A DNA stretch of 35,160 nucleotides from NCBI GenBank assembly GCA_043745055.1, contig JAYTTM010000061.1, positions 1 to 35,160 on the forward strand, written 5' to 3'. The notes under the pieces are model-generated. The model made no database searches. It worked only from the letters and a program-made list of their open reading frames with translations, and was not told where the DNA came from. The position numbers and the translations under genes are program-made. Origin of the DNA: Chitinophagaceae bacterium. Lineage in GTDB: Bacteria; Bacteroidota; Bacteroidia; Chitinophagales; Chitinophagaceae. Positions 27,802 through 35,160 of the stretch are shown here, in pieces (within the stretch, counting starts at the first letter, position 1; each line of letters opens with the position of its first letter).

Positions 27802-28671
27802 TTAAACTGGCAATGTAAAATAATATATGCTGCCTTTATCCGGTTCACTTTCTGCCCACATTTTACCGTTTTGTCTTTCTATAATATGGTGAGATATGTA
27901 CAATCCAATACCCAATCCCTGAAAATGAATAGCATGTTCCTCCACCCGGTAGTACCTGTCAAAAATTTTTATTTAAATGCTGGTTAGAAATACCGACACC
28001 AAAATCCTGCACCGGCACCTGAATCTTACTATCCAACGCTGCTATTTTAACCAACACTTTATCTGCTTTGGGAGAATATTTTACAGTATTGCTGAATAAA
28101 TTTATCAGTACCTGTTGCAGCCTGCCTCTATCACCTGTTATTAGTTGCAAACTGTATCCTGTTTTTTGTACGCAATAATTTTTAGCAGTATGTTCAATAT
28201 TTTCAATTGTTTCATCTACCATGGTATTGAAATCGAATGTGGTAATATTATAATTCAGTTTGCCATTTTGTATTTTACTGGCGTCTAATAATTCTGTAAC
28301 CAGGTTGTGCAGCCCCTCTACGGCCTGATTGGCTTTTGTTGCGTAAAAAACAGTTTGGGTTTCTTCACTTAAGGACAGCAGCAGTAACTCAATATAACCT
28401 TTGGCAGTTGTAAGCGGTGTTTTCATTTCATGGCTTGCAATGCTAATGAAATCATCTTTTTTTGTTCCAACATTTTTTGTTCATTAATGTCAGTGTTGGT
28501 TCCTATCCATCCTGTTATGTTTCTCTCATTGTCTTTTTGTGCAATGCTCTGGCTCAAATGCCAGCGGAAAGTTCCATCATTGCGGCGAATGCGAATTTCA
28601 AGTATGAAATCTACACCTGTTGCAAGGGTGAGCTGCCATTTATTTTTTTCCTTCGCTATTTTGTAATGCAA
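27802..28671 (-). pseudogene. Truncated, doubly frameshifted third paralog of the PAS histidine kinases (HK3)
   Basis: Half PAS (RRNDGTFRWHL...GWIGTNTDI), frameshift in a homopolymer near 28460, HisKA/HATPase segment, second frameshift near 27966, then KIFDRYYRVEEHAIHFQGLGIGL...FTLPV* ending at 27802. Confidence 0.85.
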
Positions 28672-29404
28672 ACTTAATTATGTTCGGGTTATTTGTTTAA
28701 ATTTTAAACAAATTTGTAGTTTGATTATTGTTTAGAAAATTCACAAAATAACATTTATGGTAGCTGCTTTTTCTTTTCTACAGTAACAGCGTCTCTTCAA
28801 TTATATCTTTTGTTGGATGTTGATTTTACGTTTTAACTGCAATTAACTTTTTGAGCTTGATGAAAAAACCAAAATAGATATAAATTGTTTTGCAGATTAA
28901 CAAAAAGCATGTTACAGATAGTAATTAAATACTTATCTGGTTTAGCCGCACCCGGCTTACCTGCAGCTCAATTAATTGAACTTTAAACAGACTGTACCTG
29001 TTTTTATTAATGACATAGATGAAAGAAAAGACGCAGATAAAAAGCGGGATGCAGAAACGCAGGAATGTATAAACGAGGCAATGAGTTTTGGGCAGCATTT
29101 ACAAAATTTGCAAAGAGGGCAAATGGCCTAAGCAGGCGTTCAACGATACTAAAATTATTGACATAAACTAAATCTTACCGCCTGCAAAGTTAAAAGTGAT
29201 ACATCAAAAACTTAATGCGCTAAGTTTTTTTAAAGCTATCTGTTTTTATTACCAGTTGTTTGTTGATGATGCCACTGGATGTATTAATAAAAAACTTGTT
29301 TAAAAAAAACAAAGTACTCGTTATAACAGGTATAATATTTTTAAGGGATTACGTTTTTTTCCGGCAACAAGGAGACACAGCACGGAGTCCGGCGCCTGTA
29401 GGCC

Positions 29405-29438
29405 AAAAAAAACCCCCGCCAACCGGCCTGGGGATTTT
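29405..29438 (-). terminator. Probable intrinsic terminator of the FN3 gene
   Basis: GC-rich imperfect stem (CCCCCGCC-AACC-GGCCTGGGG) followed by T8 on the minus strand. Confidence 0.55.
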
Positions 29439-29464
29439 AAACAGTTGTAGCAAATGCAATTACA

Positions 29465-30106
29465 TTAAGCTGCTTTTGCCGCTGCCATGGTACGTTGCAT
29501 TACGTACTGGGCCACTTCGCCGCTTTGCACCGTTTGCCCGTTGCTGCCAATAGCAATCACCCTTATCCAGTACTTTTGCCCTTCTTCCAGGTTGGTAAAT
29601 TCAAATTTTGTACGGGTATCCCCGTAAGTTTCCCATTCTGTTGTATCAGTAATTGGGTCTTTGGCAATTTGGTAATTGAAAGCCTTTGCACCTTTAACAG
29701 GATCAATAACCGCCAGCAGTGTACAAGGATTATCTCCCTGATTTACCGACTTAATAAAAGGAGCTACCAACTTAGCAGGTTCCCTTTGTTTTGCCAGTTT
29801 AAAATTACTACTGTTGAGTTTATCAAGATTGCCCTGGCACACTGTATTTACATACATTGCCCAGTTTCTTAACCCATTTGCCACAGTAGCTTTTAACGTG
29901 TTTTTACGGCTTACCGCCTGCAGGTCTTTATTACCTGCATCGGTGAGTGCAGTTTCATAATCGGTAGTGGTTGTTACAAAAGCAGCAACTGCAGGTACAG
30001 GTGCAGTAAAATTGGGGTTATTATCCATGTGCTGGATAATGATCAGGGCAAAAGACAGCATTTCGGCATCTTTCAGGTTGTTGCAATCAACGATTACTTT
30101 TTCCAT
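29465..30106 (-). CDS. Helical-domain plus fibronectin type III protein, no signal peptide
   Basis: N-terminal NPNF..P.P helical region; C-terminal FN3 (PVKGAKAFNYQ...FTNLEEGQKYWIRVIAIG). Likely start ATG 30106 (MEKVIV). Confidence 0.8.
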   Translation of the reverse strand: MEKVIVDCNNLKDAEMLSFALIIIQHMDNNPNFTAPVPAVAAFVTTTTDYETALTDAGNKDLQAVSRKNTLKATVANGLRNWAMYVNTVCQGNLDKLNSSNFKLAKQREPAKLVAPFIKSVNQGDNPCTLLAVIDPVKGAKAFNYQIAKDPITDTTEWETYGDTRTKFEFTNLEEGQKYWIRVIAIGSNGQTVQSGEVAQYVMQRTMAAAKAA

Positions 30107-30332
30107 TATTAATTTTTTAATGCTGGTTGAAATTTGCAAAAAACGCCTGCTCTCCTATTATTATTAATTAACAATATAATTGTAAACTGCTAAAAAAAAC
30201 GGTTAAACAATTGAAATATTATTACAAATTTTTGATAATAACTATATTATAAACAAACAAGTAACCAGCTGCACAATAAAAAGTTTTTTTAAATTGAGGG
30301 AAACTACAGGTAGTTTTCGTAAAAATACTAAC

Positions 30333-30395
30333 CCGTAGGCTTGTTACCCTACGACCATAGGCTTGTTACACTACGACCGTAGGCTTGTTACCCTA
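30333..30395. repeat. Three tandem 22-bp GTAG-type REP-like palindromes (third incomplete)
   Basis: CCGTAGGCTTGTTACCCTACGA / CCATAGGCTTGTTACACTACGA / CCGTAGGCTTGTTACCCTA; the unit folds CGTAGG against CCTACG. Confidence 0.85.
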
Positions 30396-30639
30396 TTGGC
30401 TTAAAATGGTAATAAATTGATGTTATAAAAAAGAAGATGATTACATAACCAGGCAAAAGAAAAGCAAATAAATAAGTAAAGGGTGAGTAATATACGCTCA
30501 AAATCTTTCGTATATTTAATGACATTACATGTGTCACATTAAAAAGCGCAAGTAGGCAGTTTCGTTTAATGAGTGACAAAATATAAACCTGGCTAAAAAG
30601 AATAGATTAAGGGAAAATAATTTTGGAGAAATGTGGACT

Positions 30640-30670
30640 TGCGGCTATTTTAACGTTAGCGGTAAGCGTA
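30640..30670 (+). other. Array-proximal recombination point (attI-like or secondary site)
   Basis: GTTAGCGGTAAGCGT at 30655 complements the ACGTCTAACCGCTAAC that ends cassette 1, but it is not preceded by the 180-bp element body. Confidence 0.55.
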
Positions 30671-30725
30671 TTGGACGACACAGACATATTAAACGAAAAA
30701 ATATTTACTAAAAATTGAAAAATAA

Positions 30726-31163
30726 ATGGAGCTTAAAACCATAGAACTAAATGTTGACCAGTCGAAGGAAATTTATGCCTCCACAAACTGCCAACAATTA
30801 ATCAATTCTATGAAAGGTTTATATCCAAAAATTGGCTTCAACAAACCTTGGGTTGGGTATTTCGCTTTTAATCATAATCAAGTTGTTGGAACTGGAGGTT
30901 TCACAGGACAACCCAAAGGCGGAAAAGTTGAAATAGCATACTGGACATTTAAAGAATTTGAAGGTCAAGGAATTGCTTCTTTTGTCTGTAAGCAACTTAT
31001 TACAATTGCCAAAGCAACTGACCCTGACATTATAATAACAGCTACAACTGCACCGGAAAATAACGCTTCAACAAAAATTTTACAGAATAACAGATTTACA
31101 TTTACCGAAATAGTGAAAGATGACGAAATTGGCGATGCTTGGTTATGGACACTTGACAAATGA
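30726..31163 (+). CDS. GNAT/RimJ-type N-acetyltransferase (cassette 1)
   Basis: VGTGGF...VEIAYWTF..FEGQGIAS...NNASTKILQNNRF motifs. Confidence 0.88.
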   Translation: MELKTIELNVDQSKEIYASTNCQQLINSMKGLYPKIGFNKPWVGYFAFNHNQVVGTGGFTGQPKGGKVEIAYWTFKEFEGQGIASFVCKQLITIAKATDPDIIITATTAPENNASTKILQNNRFTFTEIVKDDEIGDAWLWTLDK

Positions 31164-31214
31164 AAATAAAAACTTTGAATTGACACAAAGATTGATGAAC
31201 GAGAAGAACGTCTA

Positions 31215-31420
31215 ACCGCTAACAAAGGTATTGCTGCAAGCAGGGCACGTTGTTATCTTCGGCTGCGGTTAGCTATCAGCATCGGTTGGGGCAGAATCAG
31301 CACCTTTGGGCTTTTGTTTGTAATCTTTTTATTTTTATATTTTTATTCATCAGCGGTTGGGGGCAGACACAGCAATTAATTCCCTGCCTGCAGCAATACC
31401 CAATCGATGTGCGATATACT
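31215..31420 (+). repeat. attC-like element 1
   Basis: ACCGCTAAC core; arms GGTATTGCTGCAAGCAGGG (31227-31245) and CCCTGCCTGCAGCAATACC (31382-31400) pair at 18/19; the right core reads GATGTG at 31406. Confidence 0.8.
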
Positions 31421-31464
31421 AAAAGATAGTTTAGGTTTGACAACTAAATTATTAAAAAAACATT

Positions 31465-32346
31465 TTGAAAAACTTACTCTTTTTAGCATTGCTATTTTCT
31501 GCCTGCAAGCGAAACGATACGCCAGTTTACCAAACTCCTACATTTGAATTTGCACAACCAACCAAGGTTAACATTCAAGGATATAGCGGTAATATCATGG
31601 AGCCGTTTCTTTCAAGAGACGGAAATATTTTATTGTTTAATAATCTCAATGCAGCTCCTGAAAATACAAATCTTCATTGGGCAACTAAAATCAATGATAC
31701 AATTTTTCAATATAAGGGTGAAATTGCAGGAGTAAATACATCGGATTTAGAAGGTGTGCCAACCTTAGACAACACAGGAAATTTATATTTTGTTTCGCTT
31801 CGTAGTTATGCATCTACCCTTTCTACACTGTATCAGTGCAATTTTTCTAATGGTACAGCAACAAATATTCAATTAGTTACAGGAGTTAGTAAATTACAGG
31901 CAGGTTGGCTAAATTATGACATAGAAGTAAGTGCGGACGGGCAAAATATTTATTTTGTAGATGCACAATTTGATCAGACAAATAATCCTGCATCAGCCGA
32001 AATAATTATTGCAGAAAAAAATGTGTCAGGTTTTCAAAGATTGTCAAATAGTGCCGAAATAATGAAAAACATCAATACAAATGCACTTGAATATGCAGCT
32101 TGCATTTCTGTGGATCAACTTGAATTATATTTTACAAGATTAGCAATACCTTTTAATGCCACTTCGTCTCCAGAAATTTTAGTTTCAACAAGGAAAAATA
32201 AGAATGAACCATTCAGCAGCCCCCTAAAAATTGCAAGTATTACGGGCTTTGTAGAAGCCCCTACTATTGCACCAGACCAAAGGACTATCTATTATCATAA
32301 GAAAGAAAATAATAAATTTGTACTTTATTTAATCAGAAAGAAATAA
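31465..32346 (+). CDS. Lipoprotein with TolB/PD40-like beta-propeller repeats (cassette 2)
   Basis: TTG start, lipobox LFSAC, repeated P.LS.DG..L.F-type blades (PFLSRDG, VSADG, ISVDQLELYF, PTIAPDQRTIYY). Confidence 0.75.
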   Translation: MKNLLFLALLFSACKRNDTPVYQTPTFEFAQPTKVNIQGYSGNIMEPFLSRDGNILLFNNLNAAPENTNLHWATKINDTIFQYKGEIAGVNTSDLEGVPTLDNTGNLYFVSLRSYASTLSTLYQCNFSNGTATNIQLVTGVSKLQAGWLNYDIEVSADGQNIYFVDAQFDQTNNPASAEIIIAEKNVSGFQRLSNSAEIMKNINTNALEYAACISVDQLELYFTRLAIPFNATSSPEILVSTRKNKNEPFSSPLKIASITGFVEAPTIAPDQRTIYYHKKENNKFVLYLIRKK

Positions 32347-32350
32347 TGCC

Positions 32351-32559
32351 AGTACATCGCACAACATGGGGTTTTGCAATTTTGGGGCAGCGTTGTAATT
32401 TTCATCATTAGCAATATGGCAGCAGTTGTTCGGGCACAAGCATCGCTGGGCTTTTGTTCGTTAACTTGTACTTTATATTTTCAATTTAGCTTTGGTTCAG
32501 GGCAGGATCAGCATCAAATTCACTAACCTTCGGCAATGCAAAACGTTGTGTCCTATACT
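32351..32559 (+). repeat. attC-like element 2
   Basis: Begins 4 nt after the stop with AGTACATCGCACAAC and ends GTTGTGTCCTATACT (G at 32545). Shares the internal GGGCTTTTGTT...TTTATATTTTCAAT...GGGCAG...CAGCA body. Confidence 0.75.
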
Positions 32560-32624
32560 ATTTTACGCCGATTCCCTGCAAATCAGACATGAAATAATAT
32601 AATTGTAAATACTTTTGATAATAA

Positions 32625-33272
32625 ATGAGAAATATAAAAGCCATAATTTTTGACCTTGACGGAACTTTAGCTAACACATTACCTCTTTGCATTCAGGCAT
32701 TCCGGCAATCTGTTGAACCTCTTATTAACCGTTCTATTTCTGACTCTGAAATTATTGCAACGTTTGGACCTTCAGAAGAAGGAACAATAATGGCATTAGC
32801 ACCTAGTCATTATGAAAAAGGAGTTTTAGACTACCTGCATTTCTATGAAAGTTTACATGAAATGTGTCCTGTTCCTTTTGAAGGGATTAAAGAAATTTTG
32901 GAGACTTTAAAAACCAAAAAAATTCATATTTCAATGGTAACGGGTAAAGGAAAATATAGCACAAACATTTCTTTAAAATATTTTGAGCTTACTCATTTTT
33001 TTGAAATCATTGAGACTGGTTCGCCTAATGGCGCAAGAAAGGAAGAAGGCATTAAGACTATTTTAAAAACATTAGGAAACGTAAACTGTAATGAAGTAGT
33101 CTACATTGGAGATGCTGCCAGTGACATTATTGCGAGTAGAGAAGCTGGAGTTTCAGTTGTTGCAGCAGCATGGGCAGACACTGCTGAACCCGAAAAATTA
33201 AAAGAGCTAAAACCAGATCAATTGTTTTACACTATTAAAGATTTTTCAAATTGGTTGTCTGACAAAATATGA
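32625..33272 (+). CDS. HAD-family hydrolase, phosphoglycolate phosphatase-like (cassette 3)
   Basis: IIFDLDGTL motif I, VTGK motif II, YIGDAASDI motif IV. Confidence 0.9.
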   Translation: MRNIKAIIFDLDGTLANTLPLCIQAFRQSVEPLINRSISDSEIIATFGPSEEGTIMALAPSHYEKGVLDYLHFYESLHEMCPVPFEGIKEILETLKTKKIHISMVTGKGKYSTNISLKYFELTHFFEIIETGSPNGARKEEGIKTILKTLGNVNCNEVVYIGDAASDIIASREAGVSVVAAAWADTAEPEKLKELKPDQLFYTIKDFSNWLSDKI

Positions 33273-33295
33273 ACAGTCATCATATGCACGAGAGA

Positions 33296-33506
33296 AGTAA
33301 AGCACACAACAAAAGTATTTGCAAAAGCAGGGCTGGACAATGTAACATCACCTATGTGCAAGCATCATCAGTGGTTCGGACTCGACGTTCAATATCCAGC
33401 TTTAGTTGTTAACTTCAACTTTATATTTTCAATTGGGCATTAGTACCGGGCAGATACAGCAATGAATTCCCTGCCTGCAGCAATACCCGATTGTTATGTG
33501 CACCCT
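33296..33506 (+). repeat. attC-like element 3
   Basis: AGTAAAGCACACAAC ... CAGCAATGAATTCCCTGCCTGCAGCAATACCCGATT-GTTATGTGCACCCT (G at 33493). Confidence 0.8.
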
Positions 33507-33613
33507 ATCGCACAGTCTTCAGCTTCGGCGGAAAGACCAATAACATAAAAAAAACGTAACACTAAAAATTATGCAAAGCCATAATAATTTTGTAAAAAAT
33601 AAAATAAAAACAA

Positions 33614-33958
33614 ATGACTAATTATTCTATCATCGCTCAAGTTATTGTTGCTTTGTCAATAGCATATGTTTGGATATTTCATTTTGATAATATCGTTAAG
33701 GAATTTAAACAATATGGCTTAAGTGATTTAACCCGTACCATAGTAGGTTCTTCTAAAATAGCTTTATCAACATTGTTGGTTGCAGGTATTTGGTATCCGG
33801 ATTTGGTACTTATACCGGCATTACTTATCGCATTTCTTATGTTATCAGCACAATTTTTCCATTTTAAAGTGGGTAATCCATGGCAGAAACATATGCCATC
33901 TTTATTCCTACTAATATTAAGTCTTTTCATAATAGCTGTATCACTAAAATTAATATAA
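33614..33958 (+). CDS. DoxX-like membrane protein (cassette 4, gene 1)
   Basis: Four hydrophobic segments; EFKQYGL...VG..KI and LMLSAQFFHFKV motifs. Confidence 0.75.
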   Translation: MTNYSIIAQVIVALSIAYVWIFHFDNIVKEFKQYGLSDLTRTIVGSSKIALSTLLVAGIWYPDLVLIPALLIAFLMLSAQFFHFKVGNPWQKHMPSLFLLILSLFIIAVSLKLI

Positions 33959-33960
33959 AA

Positions 33961-34305
33961 ATGAACGTAGTTACTGTGCTGATTTTAATTTCAAGTCTGT
34001 CTTTTTTGGGTTATGGAATAGCATATTTTATATCACCACAAATTAAAAATGAATTCAAACGGTTTGGGCTTGAGAAAGTAGGAACACTTATCGCAGTTTT
34101 AGAATTATTGGGCGCAGTGGGTTTGCTGGTAGGTTTAAAGATTCAACTTATTTTATTGATTTCTGCAGGAGGCCTGGCGATATTAATGTTTTTAGGTGTT
34201 GCAATCAGGATAAAAGTTAAAGACAGCCTTTGGATATCATTGCCTGCCTTGTTTTTTATGATATTAAATTCATGTATTTTTTTGATGTCGCTGCGTTATA
34301 CTTAA
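33961..34305 (+). CDS. DoxX-like membrane protein (cassette 4, gene 2)
   Basis: Start ATG 33961 (MNVVTVL); EFKRFGL...LELLGAVGLLVG...LMFLGVAIRIKVKD; paralogous to the upstream gene. Confidence 0.78.
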   Translation: MNVVTVLILISSLSFLGYGIAYFISPQIKNEFKRFGLEKVGTLIAVLELLGAVGLLVGLKIQLILLISAGGLAILMFLGVAIRIKVKDSLWISLPALFFMILNSCIFLMSLRYT

Positions 34306-34436
34306 TAATCTATTTGTGCAATTCTATGGCTGGTTATTTAGAAAAAAACTACTGCTAAAATATAATTGTAAGTTTATTTTATCTCGTATTAACATAGTGC
34401 ATTTAAGTGATTGATAATTTTTAAATTAATAACGTA

Positions 34437-34622
34437 ATGTTTAAAAAATTTACAACAACTGATAAATTATTATTTATCGCAGCATTTCTTTCGCTTATTT
34501 TTTCAGAAATATTATATTTCAAGGGAGAAGCCAACGTCGCCATATTTATTGGTATTTGGGTACCCTCTATATTGGCTTTCGGAATTTATTTAAGACTTAT
34601 AAGCAACAGTAAAAATGACTGA
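34437..34622 (+). CDS. Small two-TM membrane protein (cassette 4, gene 3)
   Basis: 61 aa, hydrophobic, AIFIGIWVPSILAFG motif. Confidence 0.7.
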   Translation: MFKKFTTTDKLLFIAAFLSLIFSEILYFKGEANVAIFIGIWVPSILAFGIYLRLISNSKND

Positions 34623-34713
34623 AATAATACCATATTTCGCAGGCCTGATTACATTATTATTCGCAACAGGCTTTTTATTGGCGTTAAGAGAAATGAGAAA
34701 ACAAAAACTCTGA
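34615..34713 (+). CDS. 32-aa single-TM microprotein (cassette 4, gene 4)
   Basis: Read by hand: MTEIIPYFAGLITLLFATGFLLALREMRKQKL*. The ATG overlaps the previous gene's end (ATGACTGA). Confidence 0.6.
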   Translation: MTEIIPYFAGLITLLFATGFLLALREMRKQKL

Positions 34714-34807
34714 ATGCTCATCTGGTTAAGGCAATTATTTAATCTGCATAGGCAACACAAAATGCGATTACTTCAATTTATCAGAACCATCACAAAACTG
34801 AAAGAAA

Positions 34808-35019
34808 AGGGCATGCACATAACAGGCGGTTTGGCAATATGGTGGCACGTTGTTAGGGTCGGCATTTTATCGCTATCAGCAGCGGTTTAGGCGGAAGGAT
34901 TTCTGTTGTGCTTTTAGTTGTTACCTTATACTTTAATTTTTCAATCGGTTTCAGTTCCGGGGCTTCACCAGCAATGAATCCCCTGCCTGCAGCAATACCA
35001 AATCGTTGTGTGCAAGCGT
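34808..35019 (+). repeat. attC-like element 4
   Basis: AGGGCATGCACATAAC ... CAGCAATGAATCCCCTGCCTGCAGCAATACCAAATC-GTTGTGTGCAAGCGT (G at 35005). Confidence 0.8.
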
Positions 35020-35070
35020 AGCGGATGCCCTAAGTAACCTCAACATTCTTTATATTCGCACTCAAAAATT

Positions 35071-35160
35071 ATGGCGTTAAGTTGGAATGAAATAAAAGAT
35101 AGAGCCTTAAACTTTTCAAAAGAATGGGCAGACACTTCCAACGAAGAAGCAGACGCAAAA
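35071..35160 (+). CDS. N-terminus of a probable MmeI-like (Type IIL) restriction-modification enzyme / DNA methyltransferase (cassette 5, partial)
   Basis: MALSWNEIKDRALNFSKEWADTSNEEADAK resembles the N-terminus of MmeI/YeeA-family proteins. Only 30 codons are visible. Confidence 0.65.
   Translation, partial: MALSWNEIKDRALNFSKEWADTSNEEADAK

What the first reader, a model, noticed from the sequence alone, without database searches (positions are those of the whole stretch)
30655..34823. Each cassette's two ends are reverse complements of each other, a direct footprint of circular-cassette integration
Seen, as 5' end versus reverse complement of 3' end. Cassette 1: GTTAGCGGTAAG-CGT (30655) vs GTTAGCGGTTAGACGT (31208-31223). 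Cassette 2: GATGTGCGATATACT (31406) vs GTTGTGCGATGTACT (32351-32365), 13/15. Cassette 3: GTTGTGTCCTATACT (32545) vs GTTGTGTGCTTTACT (33296-33310), 13/15. Cassette 4: GTTATGTGCA--CCCT (33493) vs GTTATGTGCATGCCCT (34808-34823). The match follows the cassette, not the element. Inference: the ends were one hairpin in a circular intermediate that was opened at or just before GTT. This gives units of about 751, 1139, 948 and 1512 bp. The complementarity extends about 15 bp, roughly twice the 7-bp R box of classic attC.
Basis: partly seen in the sequence, partly recalled or inferred. Interest (0 to 1): 0.85.

Follow-up and report, generated by a model that had tools for sequence, protein, structure and literature searches.

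The report
Integron-like cassettes with wobble-marked hairpins
The matching ends are real and mark swappable gene cassettes in an integron-like array; their predicted DNA hairpins carry a fixed G·T wobble on one strand and are likely recombined by an enzyme that lacks the helix thought essential for integrons, a design that recurs across Bacteroidota.

Summary
In 67 two-ended cassettes of this genome the ends pair within the cassette (positions 1-9: 94-100%; positions 12-15: 4/4 in 56 of 67) and not across cassettes or elements. Homology with other copies starts at the GTT.

This is standard integron logic. Class 1/2 cassettes already pair over 8-12 bp, so 'twice the R box' is overstated.

What differs is the anatomy. 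Both arms of the ~190-nt site have an A/G mismatch at position 11 (65 of 67 outer, 60 of 64 inner), a G·T wobble only on the bottom strand. The spacer is 5 versus 7 nt, and there are no classical L-box bulges.

The likely recombinase lies on another contig and lacks the ~41-residue I2 insertion. It is followed by a leader homologous to the one before window 30655, an attI-like site. The signature follows 25 of 52 related recombinase genes. The closest published system is rAID-1 of Bacteroidales, whose hairpin anatomy I did not find described.

The window's array has no integrase on its contig and is partly decayed. The mechanism is inferred, not shown. Earlier AI notes of this scan report the same system. 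Verdict: new variant of a known kind.

The parts
30500..30654 (+). Leader ending in an attI-like site; homologous to the leader that directly follows the recombinase gene on contig C329
   Evidence: 70% over 157 nt to C329; leader profile hits C329, C227, C61 and C1065
30506..30551 (.). Two outward-facing half-site-like motifs (30506-30516 and 30541-30551) around a short palindrome (30520-30536); possible accessory binding sites (inferred)
   Evidence: conserved in C329 and C227
30639..30657 (+). attI-like core: inner half-site 30639-30649, 5-nt spacer, GTT at 30655
   Evidence: same geometry after recombinase genes of relatives
30655..31405 (+). Cassette 1 (751 bp); GNAT acetyltransferase gene 30726-31163; 3' outer arm 31208-31223
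31221..31408 (-). attC-like element E1 with an intact inner stem (12 bp + wobble + 6 bp); the following core is mutated to GAT
31406..32544 (+). Cassette 2 (1139 bp); PD40 repeat protein gene 31465-32346; 3' outer arm 32351-32365
   Evidence: a contig from another study matches only 31408-32366
32363..32547 (-). attC-like element E2 with mismatched (chimeric or decayed) inner arms
   Evidence: spanned without differences by contigs of runs X1 and X3
32545..33492 (+). Cassette 3 (948 bp); HAD hydrolase gene 32625-33272; 3' outer arm 33296-33310; two substitutions against the family pattern
   Evidence: homolog in G827 follows an attI-like sequence
33308..33495 (-). attC-like element E3 with partly mismatched inner arms
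33493..35004 (+). Cassette 4 (1512 bp); two DoxX-like genes (33614-33958, 33880-34305) and small ORFs (34437-34622, 34615-34713); 3' outer arm 34808-34823
   Evidence: homolog in G527 starts at 33493
34821..35007 (-). attC-like element E4 with mismatched inner arms
   Evidence: covered up to 34998 by contigs of X1 and X3
35005..35160 (+). Start of cassette 5; gene from 35071, N-terminus of an MmeI-type restriction-modification protein; cut by the contig end
   Evidence: homologs on C981 and G034; Pfam MmeI domains on the G034 protein

Best explanation
The stretch is the start of an integron-like gene-cassette array whose ~190-nt sites are predicted to fold on the bottom strand into hairpins with two G·T-marked arms, and which is likely built by an I2-less tyrosine recombinase encoded on another contig. 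Shown: cassettes run from GTT to the next GTT, and their ends pair over 9-10 bp, a fixed A/G mismatch, then 4 bp. Shown: the inner stem repeats this pattern (position 8 mostly G, position 11 A/G), and the two arms are separated by a 5-nt versus 7-nt spacer. Shown: the array starts at a leader homologous to the one behind the recombinase gene. Inferred: in an excised single-stranded circle the two cassette ends form the outer arm; two recombinase monomers bind the arms, and the wobbles (G·T on the bottom strand, C·A on the top) select the bottom strand. Inferred: crossover at or within GTT joins the cassette to the double-stranded attI, so the outer arm is split between the cassette's two ends. 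Inferred by analogy with integrons: resolution by replication. The window's array has no recombinase on its contig and is partly decayed, so cassettes 2-4 are probably poor substrates now.
For: End pairing and controls. Inner-arm position 11 is A/G in 60 of 64 well-paired elements, out of 71 full-length ones. Arm-only folds: bottom strand better than top in 47 of 50, circular better than array in 50 of 50; whole-site folds: bottom better in 35 of 50. Four groups of repeated cassette starts (6, 6, 3 and 2 copies) have different upstream elements up to the C before GTT. Window cassettes 3 and 4 match other genomes starting exactly at the G. A cassette shared at 99.3% by G319 and G240 includes its downstream element and diverges right after the next GTT. 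The recombinase has all catalytic residues invariant, its best fold match is VchIntIA 2a3v, and it lacks ~41 residues at I2. The leader profile matches 9 of 19 related recombinase loci. 25 of 52 downstream regions carry at least one cassette, with A/G at position 11 in 76 of 79 pairs.
Against: No recombination, circle or RNA was observed; only contigs were available. The whole element E1 folds no better than shuffles (z -0.47 bottom, -0.22 top), so the ~140-nt loop is unstructured. The recombinase contig ends at the GTT, so it is not physically joined to cassettes in this assembly. 27 of 52 downstream regions had no detected cassette, and close family members sit next to IS91-type transposases instead. 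Published work ties attC recombination to I2 (PMC7790495) and rejects I2-less recombinases near attC sites as IntI (PMC4889954). The downstream element is not always kept: the homologs of cassettes 3 and 4 carry different elements.
Confidence: 0.8

Rival explanations
1. The cassette ends are double-stranded inverted binding repeats (transposon- or Xer-module-like), recombined as duplex DNA by an ordinary tyrosine recombinase, with no hairpin or single-stranded circle.
For: The enzyme lacks I2, as duplex-acting Xer enzymes do. The whole element does not fold better than shuffles. No circle was seen.
Against: Positions 4-7 and 12-15 vary freely between cassettes yet covary between the two ends of one cassette, which protein recognition alone does not require. 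The A/G asymmetry is fixed in both arms and gives a stable pair on one strand only. The inner arms also covary (0.70 same element versus 0.51 other).
Confidence: 0.08
2. The sites are unusual attC sites handled by a classical IntI acting in trans (unassembled, or in other cells), and the I2-less recombinase is a bystander.
For: The assembly has 1189 contigs and is 96% complete. The window has no recombinase on its contig. PMC4889954 argues that I2-less recombinases near attC are not IntI.
Against: No TIGR02249 match over the cut-off in this genome. The attI-like leader and first cassette follow the I2-less gene directly in many relatives, including complete genomes. The inner half-site of the attI has the same pattern as the hairpin arms. 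The L-box bulges that I2 reads are absent.
Confidence: 0.07
3. The pattern 'follows the cassette, not the element' is an assembly artefact from collapsing ~140 similar repeats.
For: Many contigs end inside elements, and three of the four window elements have mismatched inner arms.
Against: The same pattern holds in complete single-contig genomes with well-paired elements (G285, G319). Contigs of runs X1 and X3 span E2 without differences, though these runs may be the source sample. Misassembly would not create pairing between the two ends of one cassette.
Confidence: 0.02

Closest known systems
Classical integrons (IntI1, IntI2, VchIntIA; attI, attC cassettes) and CALINs
   Same: GTT/AAC cores, cassette-specific end pairing, an attI-like entry site, co-directional single-gene cassettes, predicted bottom-strand hairpins. 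The recombinase is IntI's near relative by sequence, tree and fold.
   Different: No I2 insertion (61-64 versus 103 residues between the KDR and RH motifs). The recombinase is co-directional, with attI at its 3' side. Sites are ~190 nt against the reported 57-141 bp. The outer arm is 15 nt with a fixed wobble, against 8-12 bp plain pairing. The spacer is 5 versus 7 nt and there are no L-box extrahelical bases.
rAID-1 systems of Bacteroidales (Ross et al., bioRxiv 10.1101/471110; PMC12247911)
   Same: A 5' XerD-like recombinase with co-directional low-GC genes and repeated intergenic motifs 'reminiscent of integrons'. Two rAID-type plasmid loci have recombinases 43% identical to ours and cassette ends that pair at positions 2-9 (0.88-1.0 in 17 cassettes).
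   Different: Their elements are ~42-46 nt with an ATT core, no 12-15 extension and no fixed position-11 wobble. The cargo is immunity genes and the host is Bacteroidales. The passages read describe motifs only, not hairpins, cassette ends or crossover points.
IS91-associated and XerC/D-type tyrosine recombinases
   Same: Same catalytic domain without I2; Phage_int_SAM_4 in the IS91-associated ones is recalled, not tested.
   Different: XerC/D fall outside the clade. IS91-associated relatives (C877, L170) are followed by a transposase, not by a leader and cassettes.

Membership tests
Classical integron | Integrase carries the IntI-specific I2 insertion | tested here: not met
   Query 311-324 aligns across IntI4 185-240; TIGR02249 188.8 bits against cut-off 265, in two stretches; none over the cut-off in the genome; 62 versus 103 residues
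Classical integron | Intact tyrosine-recombinase catalytic residues | tested here: met
   R261, K286, H351, R354, H377, Y386 invariant in 33 of 33 sequences
Classical integron | attI site next to the integrase gene | tested here: met
   The leader ending in GTT follows the C329 gene and its relatives, but on the 3' side. The window's copy has no integrase on its contig.
Classical integron | attC cores (AAC ... GTT) with cassette-specific end complementarity | tested here: met
Classical integron | Extrahelical bases in the L box of attC | tested here: not met
   The proximal inner stem pairs without bulges; 11 of 64 have one extra base at the distal wobble only
Classical integron | attC length 57-141 bp (PMC5371416) | tested here: not met
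   AAC-to-GTT distance 181-193 in 71 of 72; relatives span 85-191
Classical integron | Recombination of the folded bottom strand with replicative resolution | not testable with these tools
   Only inferred from wobble polarity and folding energies
Classical integron | Cassette promoter Pc | tested here: inconclusive
   Sigma-70 scan at chance level. A recalled Bacteroidetes -7 motif occurs at 30618, but the motif is not above chance in the window (40 found, 58 expected).
CALIN | Cluster of two or more cassette sites with no neighbouring integrase | tested here: inconclusive
   No tyrosine recombinase on C61, but the contig ends inside the array
CALIN | Sites match the IntegronFinder attC covariance model | not testable with these tools
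   The model is not available; Rfam gave no match
rAID-1 | Recombinase more than 44% identical to B. fragilis BF9343_RS08045 | tested here: inconclusive
   The reference was not fetched. Identity is 43% to two rAID-type proxies, which form a separate branch.
rAID-1 | Two or more co-directional downstream genes with GC of 41% or less | tested here: met
   Mean cassette GC 33%; longest ORF on the array strand in 55 of 67; shown for the arrays, not joined to the C329 gene
rAID-1 | Cargo of orphan interbacterial immunity genes | tested here: not met
   The window cargo is GNAT, PD40, HAD, DoxX and MmeI; the genome-wide cargo was not scanned against families
rAID-1 | Bacteroidales host | tested here: not met
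   Nearest recombinases (82-83%) are from Chitinophagaceae records

The most novel reading that the evidence does not exclude
Bacteroidota carry a second, I2-independent kind of integron. Its recombinase reads single-stranded hairpins through a symmetric pair of G·T wobbles and an asymmetric spacer rather than extrahelical bases. It includes the gut rAID-1 arrays as a short-site branch, and IntI arose inside this radiation, so hairpin recombination predates the I2 helix. In some members an N-terminal domain with a distorted-DNA-recognition-like fold may help read the wobble.
Probability: 0.5. Interest if true: 0.85.

Novelty: new variant of a known kind. Interest (0 to 1): 0.6.

Why it matters
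Integron hairpin recombination is credited to the I2 helix, and the standard integrase profile requires it, so Bacteroidota are reported as nearly integron-free. Here one genome holds about 140 sites, and a related recombinase is found in 104 of 301 sampled genomes of the phylum (not all of these have arrays).

If the I2-less enzyme recombines these hairpins, three things follow. The origin of integrons becomes directly testable. The rAID-1 immunity arrays get a mechanism. A large overlooked pool of mobile cassettes, including restriction-modification genes, can be catalogued with a simple sequence rule.

The end complementarity by itself is ordinary integron biology.

Tried and rejected
- Rfam: no match at E up to 1.
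- Cassette 5 in the window: untestable, because the contig ends. The second copy on C981 has a degenerate 5' end and no element. Eight MmeI homolog regions from the genus showed no element-bounded cassette by eye.
- The cassette detector used a wrong base at position 8, so its near-empty result is void. It was redone.
- The 'rev' counts are the same cassettes read from the other strand, not a control. One search is the control.
- Classical control: crashed. In one search, 6 of 21 genes gave no pair, 3 were duplicates, and 3 of the 12 distinct pairs were mis-picked (runs of 4-5).
- The first rAID detector mis-picked cores and was redone.
- Sequencing runs: no RNA holder listed. Only contigs were available, so circles could not be seen, and the joints look like repeat artefacts.
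- C877 recombinase rejected as the array's enzyme, since an IS91-type transposase follows it.
- N-terminal domain: no PDB sequence match. The fold matches (UvsW N-terminus Z 6.6, XPB Z 6.4-6.6) are below the level that proves kinship, and cassette-bearing relatives of 282-289 aa lack the domain.
- Both trees are quick trees with unresolved backbones, so no order of events is claimed.
- Papers on xerD next to tet(X) and on myxobacterial beta-lactamases gave nothing on these sites.
- Look-ups of earlier findings by place and by sequence were empty.
Full report
1. Observation. The window is the whole of contig C61 of a 5.0-Mb, 1189-contig assembly. The quoted ends and the unit lengths 751, 1139, 948 and 1512 bp are correct. 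Ungapped matches are 11, 13, 13 and 11 of 15, but cassettes 2 and 3 cross-match at 11 of 15, so four cassettes are too few to judge.

An iterated profile of the four elements gave 144 hits on 63 contigs. In 71 of the 72 hits with both cores, the AAC-to-GTT distance is 181-193. 67 cassettes had both ends on one contig; two long ones may skip an undetected element and were kept. Only window cassettes 3 and 4 are among the 67. Same-cassette identity between the 5' end and the reverse complement of the 3' end is 0.94-1.00 at positions 1-9, 0.69 at 10, 0.00 at 11, 0.73-0.82 at 12-15, 0.09 at 16 and background beyond. Other-cassette and same-element pairs are at background at the variable positions. 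With a one-base shift allowed (20 of 67), positions 12-15 match fully in 56 of 67 cassettes, against 246 of 4422 control pairs. Position 11 is A against G in 65 of 67, and the two exceptions are window cassettes 3 and 4. A detector blind to position 11 found 59 pairs (55 A/G) in the element contigs, 12 (0 A/G) in the other 4.7 Mb and 56 (1 A/G) in 25 Mb of shuffles.

2. Boundaries. Repeated cassette starts in this genome (groups of 6, 6, 3 and 2) have different upstream elements up to the C before GTT. Among 401 family genomes, the best homolog of cassette 4 (G527, 84%) starts at 33493 and that of cassette 3 (G827, 83%) at 32545, each the G of GTT. The other hits (12 and 14 genomes) cover gene bodies or elements only. 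In G827 the cassette follows an attI-like sequence, whereas in the window it follows an element. A cassette shared at 99.3% by G319 and G240 includes its downstream element and diverges after the next GTT. A contig from an independent study matches cassette 2 from 31408 to 32366 only. These data place the crossover between the base before GTT and position 4. G/TT is inferred from integrons, and from rAID-type arrays where position 1 differs between the two ends in 14 of 17 cassettes. Against a simple picture, the homologs of cassettes 3 and 4 carry different downstream elements, so element interiors are exchanged over time.

3. Anatomy of the site. The inner arms pair best at an offset of two bases, giving a 5-nt versus 7-nt spacer (offset 2 in 55 of 71, 1 in 8, 0 in 1, poor in 7). 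The inner arm repeats the outer pattern: three core bases, four variable paired bases, G at 8, A/G at 11 (60 of 64), then six pairs. A/G is a G·T wobble on the bottom strand and a C·A mismatch on the top. In both arms the G lies on the strand that reads outward from the spacer, a two-fold symmetric arrangement that suits a recombinase dimer (inference). A T/C position in the inner core (25 of 64) would wobble on the top strand instead, which tells against a perfectly one-sided rule. Arm-only folds favour the bottom strand in 47 of 50 and the circular over the array form in 50 of 50; whole-site folds favour the bottom strand in 35 of 50. The whole element E1 does not beat shuffles. Window elements E2-E4 have mismatched inner arms and cassette 2 starts with GAT. 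Contigs of runs X1 and X3, possibly the source sample, span E2 and most of E4, and no listed piece bridges E3. The window's array is therefore partly decayed.

4. The enzyme and attI. The genome has 12 PF00589 matches, none on a contig with elements, and no TIGR02249 match over the cut-off. The best, on C329 (410 aa), is followed in the same direction by a 160-nt leader that ends in GTT at the contig end. This leader is homologous to window 30500-30654, to C227 and to C1065. The leader ends in a half-site of the arm pattern, a 5-nt spacer and GTT. The protein keeps all catalytic residues, its top fold match is VchIntIA, and it lacks about 41 residues where IntI has I2. In two quick trees IntI1 and IntI2 group among these proteins and apart from XerC/D, on an unresolved backbone. 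Its N-terminal 85 residues fold confidently (pLDDT 92) and resemble the UvsW and XPB N-terminal domains at Z 6.4-6.6, which is only suggestive; some cassette-bearing relatives lack this domain.

5. Spread. Matches at E up to 1e-50 occur in 104 of 301 phylum genomes and at E up to 1e-60 in 21 of 41 relatives. I examined 52 downstream regions: 40 picked for long contigs (not at random) and 12 of the 13. Of these, 25 carry at least one cassette pair, 16 have an attI-like site by a strict pattern, and 76 of 79 pairs have A/G at position 11 (a few pairs overlap or are spurious). Element lengths cluster near 124 and 190 nt. One locus has 17 cassettes in 15 kb. Cassette 5's homolog is the first cassette behind the recombinase in G034 and obeys the rule.

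6. Comparison with what is known. PMC5371416 (passages) notes that the variable R' bases need not complement R'' in the array, and gives attC lengths of 57-141 bp; cassette-specific end pairing is thus ordinary integron logic. My control on seven class 1/2 plasmid regions (the analysis used six) gave runs of 8-12 bp in the 9 correctly picked pairs, and no pair of 12 with three or more matches at 12-15. PMC7790495 (passages) and PMC8946536 (passages) tie attC recombination to I2, the bottom strand and replicative resolution. PMC4889954 (passages) dismisses I2-less recombinases near attC. PMC9024848 (passages) finds almost no Bacteroidetes integrons, PMC8618304 (passages) lists the phylum without detail, and PMC11523902 (passages) found none in Elizabethkingia.

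Two plasmid hits of the recombinase turned out to be rAID-type immunity arrays. Ross et al. (10.1101/471110, passages) describe rAID-1 as having a XerD-family recombinase and intergenic repeats reminiscent of integrons; PMC12247911 (passages) repeats this. I show that those repeats are short hairpin sites with cassette-specific end pairing but without the position-11 wobble or the 12-15 extension. I could not see Ross et al.'s Fig. S4 motif image, its supplements or the journal version, and they may bear on novelty. Nine paper searches found no description of the long wobble-marked sites or of I2-less hairpin recombination; subscription journals are mostly not covered. Nine earlier AI notes of this scan describe the same kind of system in other genomes. 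They are leads, not support.

7. Verdict. The array works like an integron but fails IntI membership on I2, L-box bulges and site length, and fails rAID-1 membership on cargo and host. The surprising part is the I2-less enzyme paired with a different hairpin code. It is a new variant of a known kind with an inferred mechanism (confidence 0.8); interest 0.6.

Noticed in passing
window 29364-30391 and G000:C227:4301-5329: A 1-kb block with an fn3-like ORF (29465-30139) and a triple 22-nt repeat (30333-30398) is 93.5% identical in front of two different recombinase-less leaders.
   Followed up: partly
G000:C227:5611-6008: Both flanks of the C329 recombinase gene (79% and 88% identical) lie side by side without the gene, suggesting a clean loss of the integrase ahead of this array.
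   Followed up: partly
G000:C188, C598, C1119, C964, C1051, C926; C1004, C343, C555: A ~194-bp and a ~250-bp cassette with little or no coding capacity recur 6 and 3 times; another cassette start recurs 6 times. They could be promoter or RNA cassettes.
   Followed up: no
G000:C981 (L082): A second MmeI-type gene with a degenerate cassette 5' end and no element on either side; possibly an off-target insertion that decayed.
   Followed up: partly
L168:11328-16834 and L169:11438-17568: rAID-type immunity arrays have 42-46-nt hairpin sites and cassette ends that pair at positions 2-9, with A/G at position 1 in 14 of 17.
   Followed up: yes
L004 protein residues 1-85: N-terminal domain with weak fold matches to UvsW, the XPB N-terminus, MutS, MotA and HARP domains; optional in the family.
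   Followed up: partly
L167:16537-17853: A group II intron reverse transcriptase lies on the opposite strand among the genes downstream of a related recombinase on a Chryseobacterium plasmid, which recalls attC-targeting group IIC introns (recalled).
   Followed up: no
window 27959-28671: Fragments of a PAS histidine-kinase gene in two frames, apparently a pseudogene.
   Followed up: no
window 31246 region: Summed contig depth reaches about 17,000 against about 50 in unique cassette DNA in run X1, hinting at many more element copies in the sample than were assembled; other organisms contribute.
   Followed up: no
G000:C1065: A fourth leader copy with a degenerate core (TTT instead of GTT) and no element detected downstream.
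   Followed up: no
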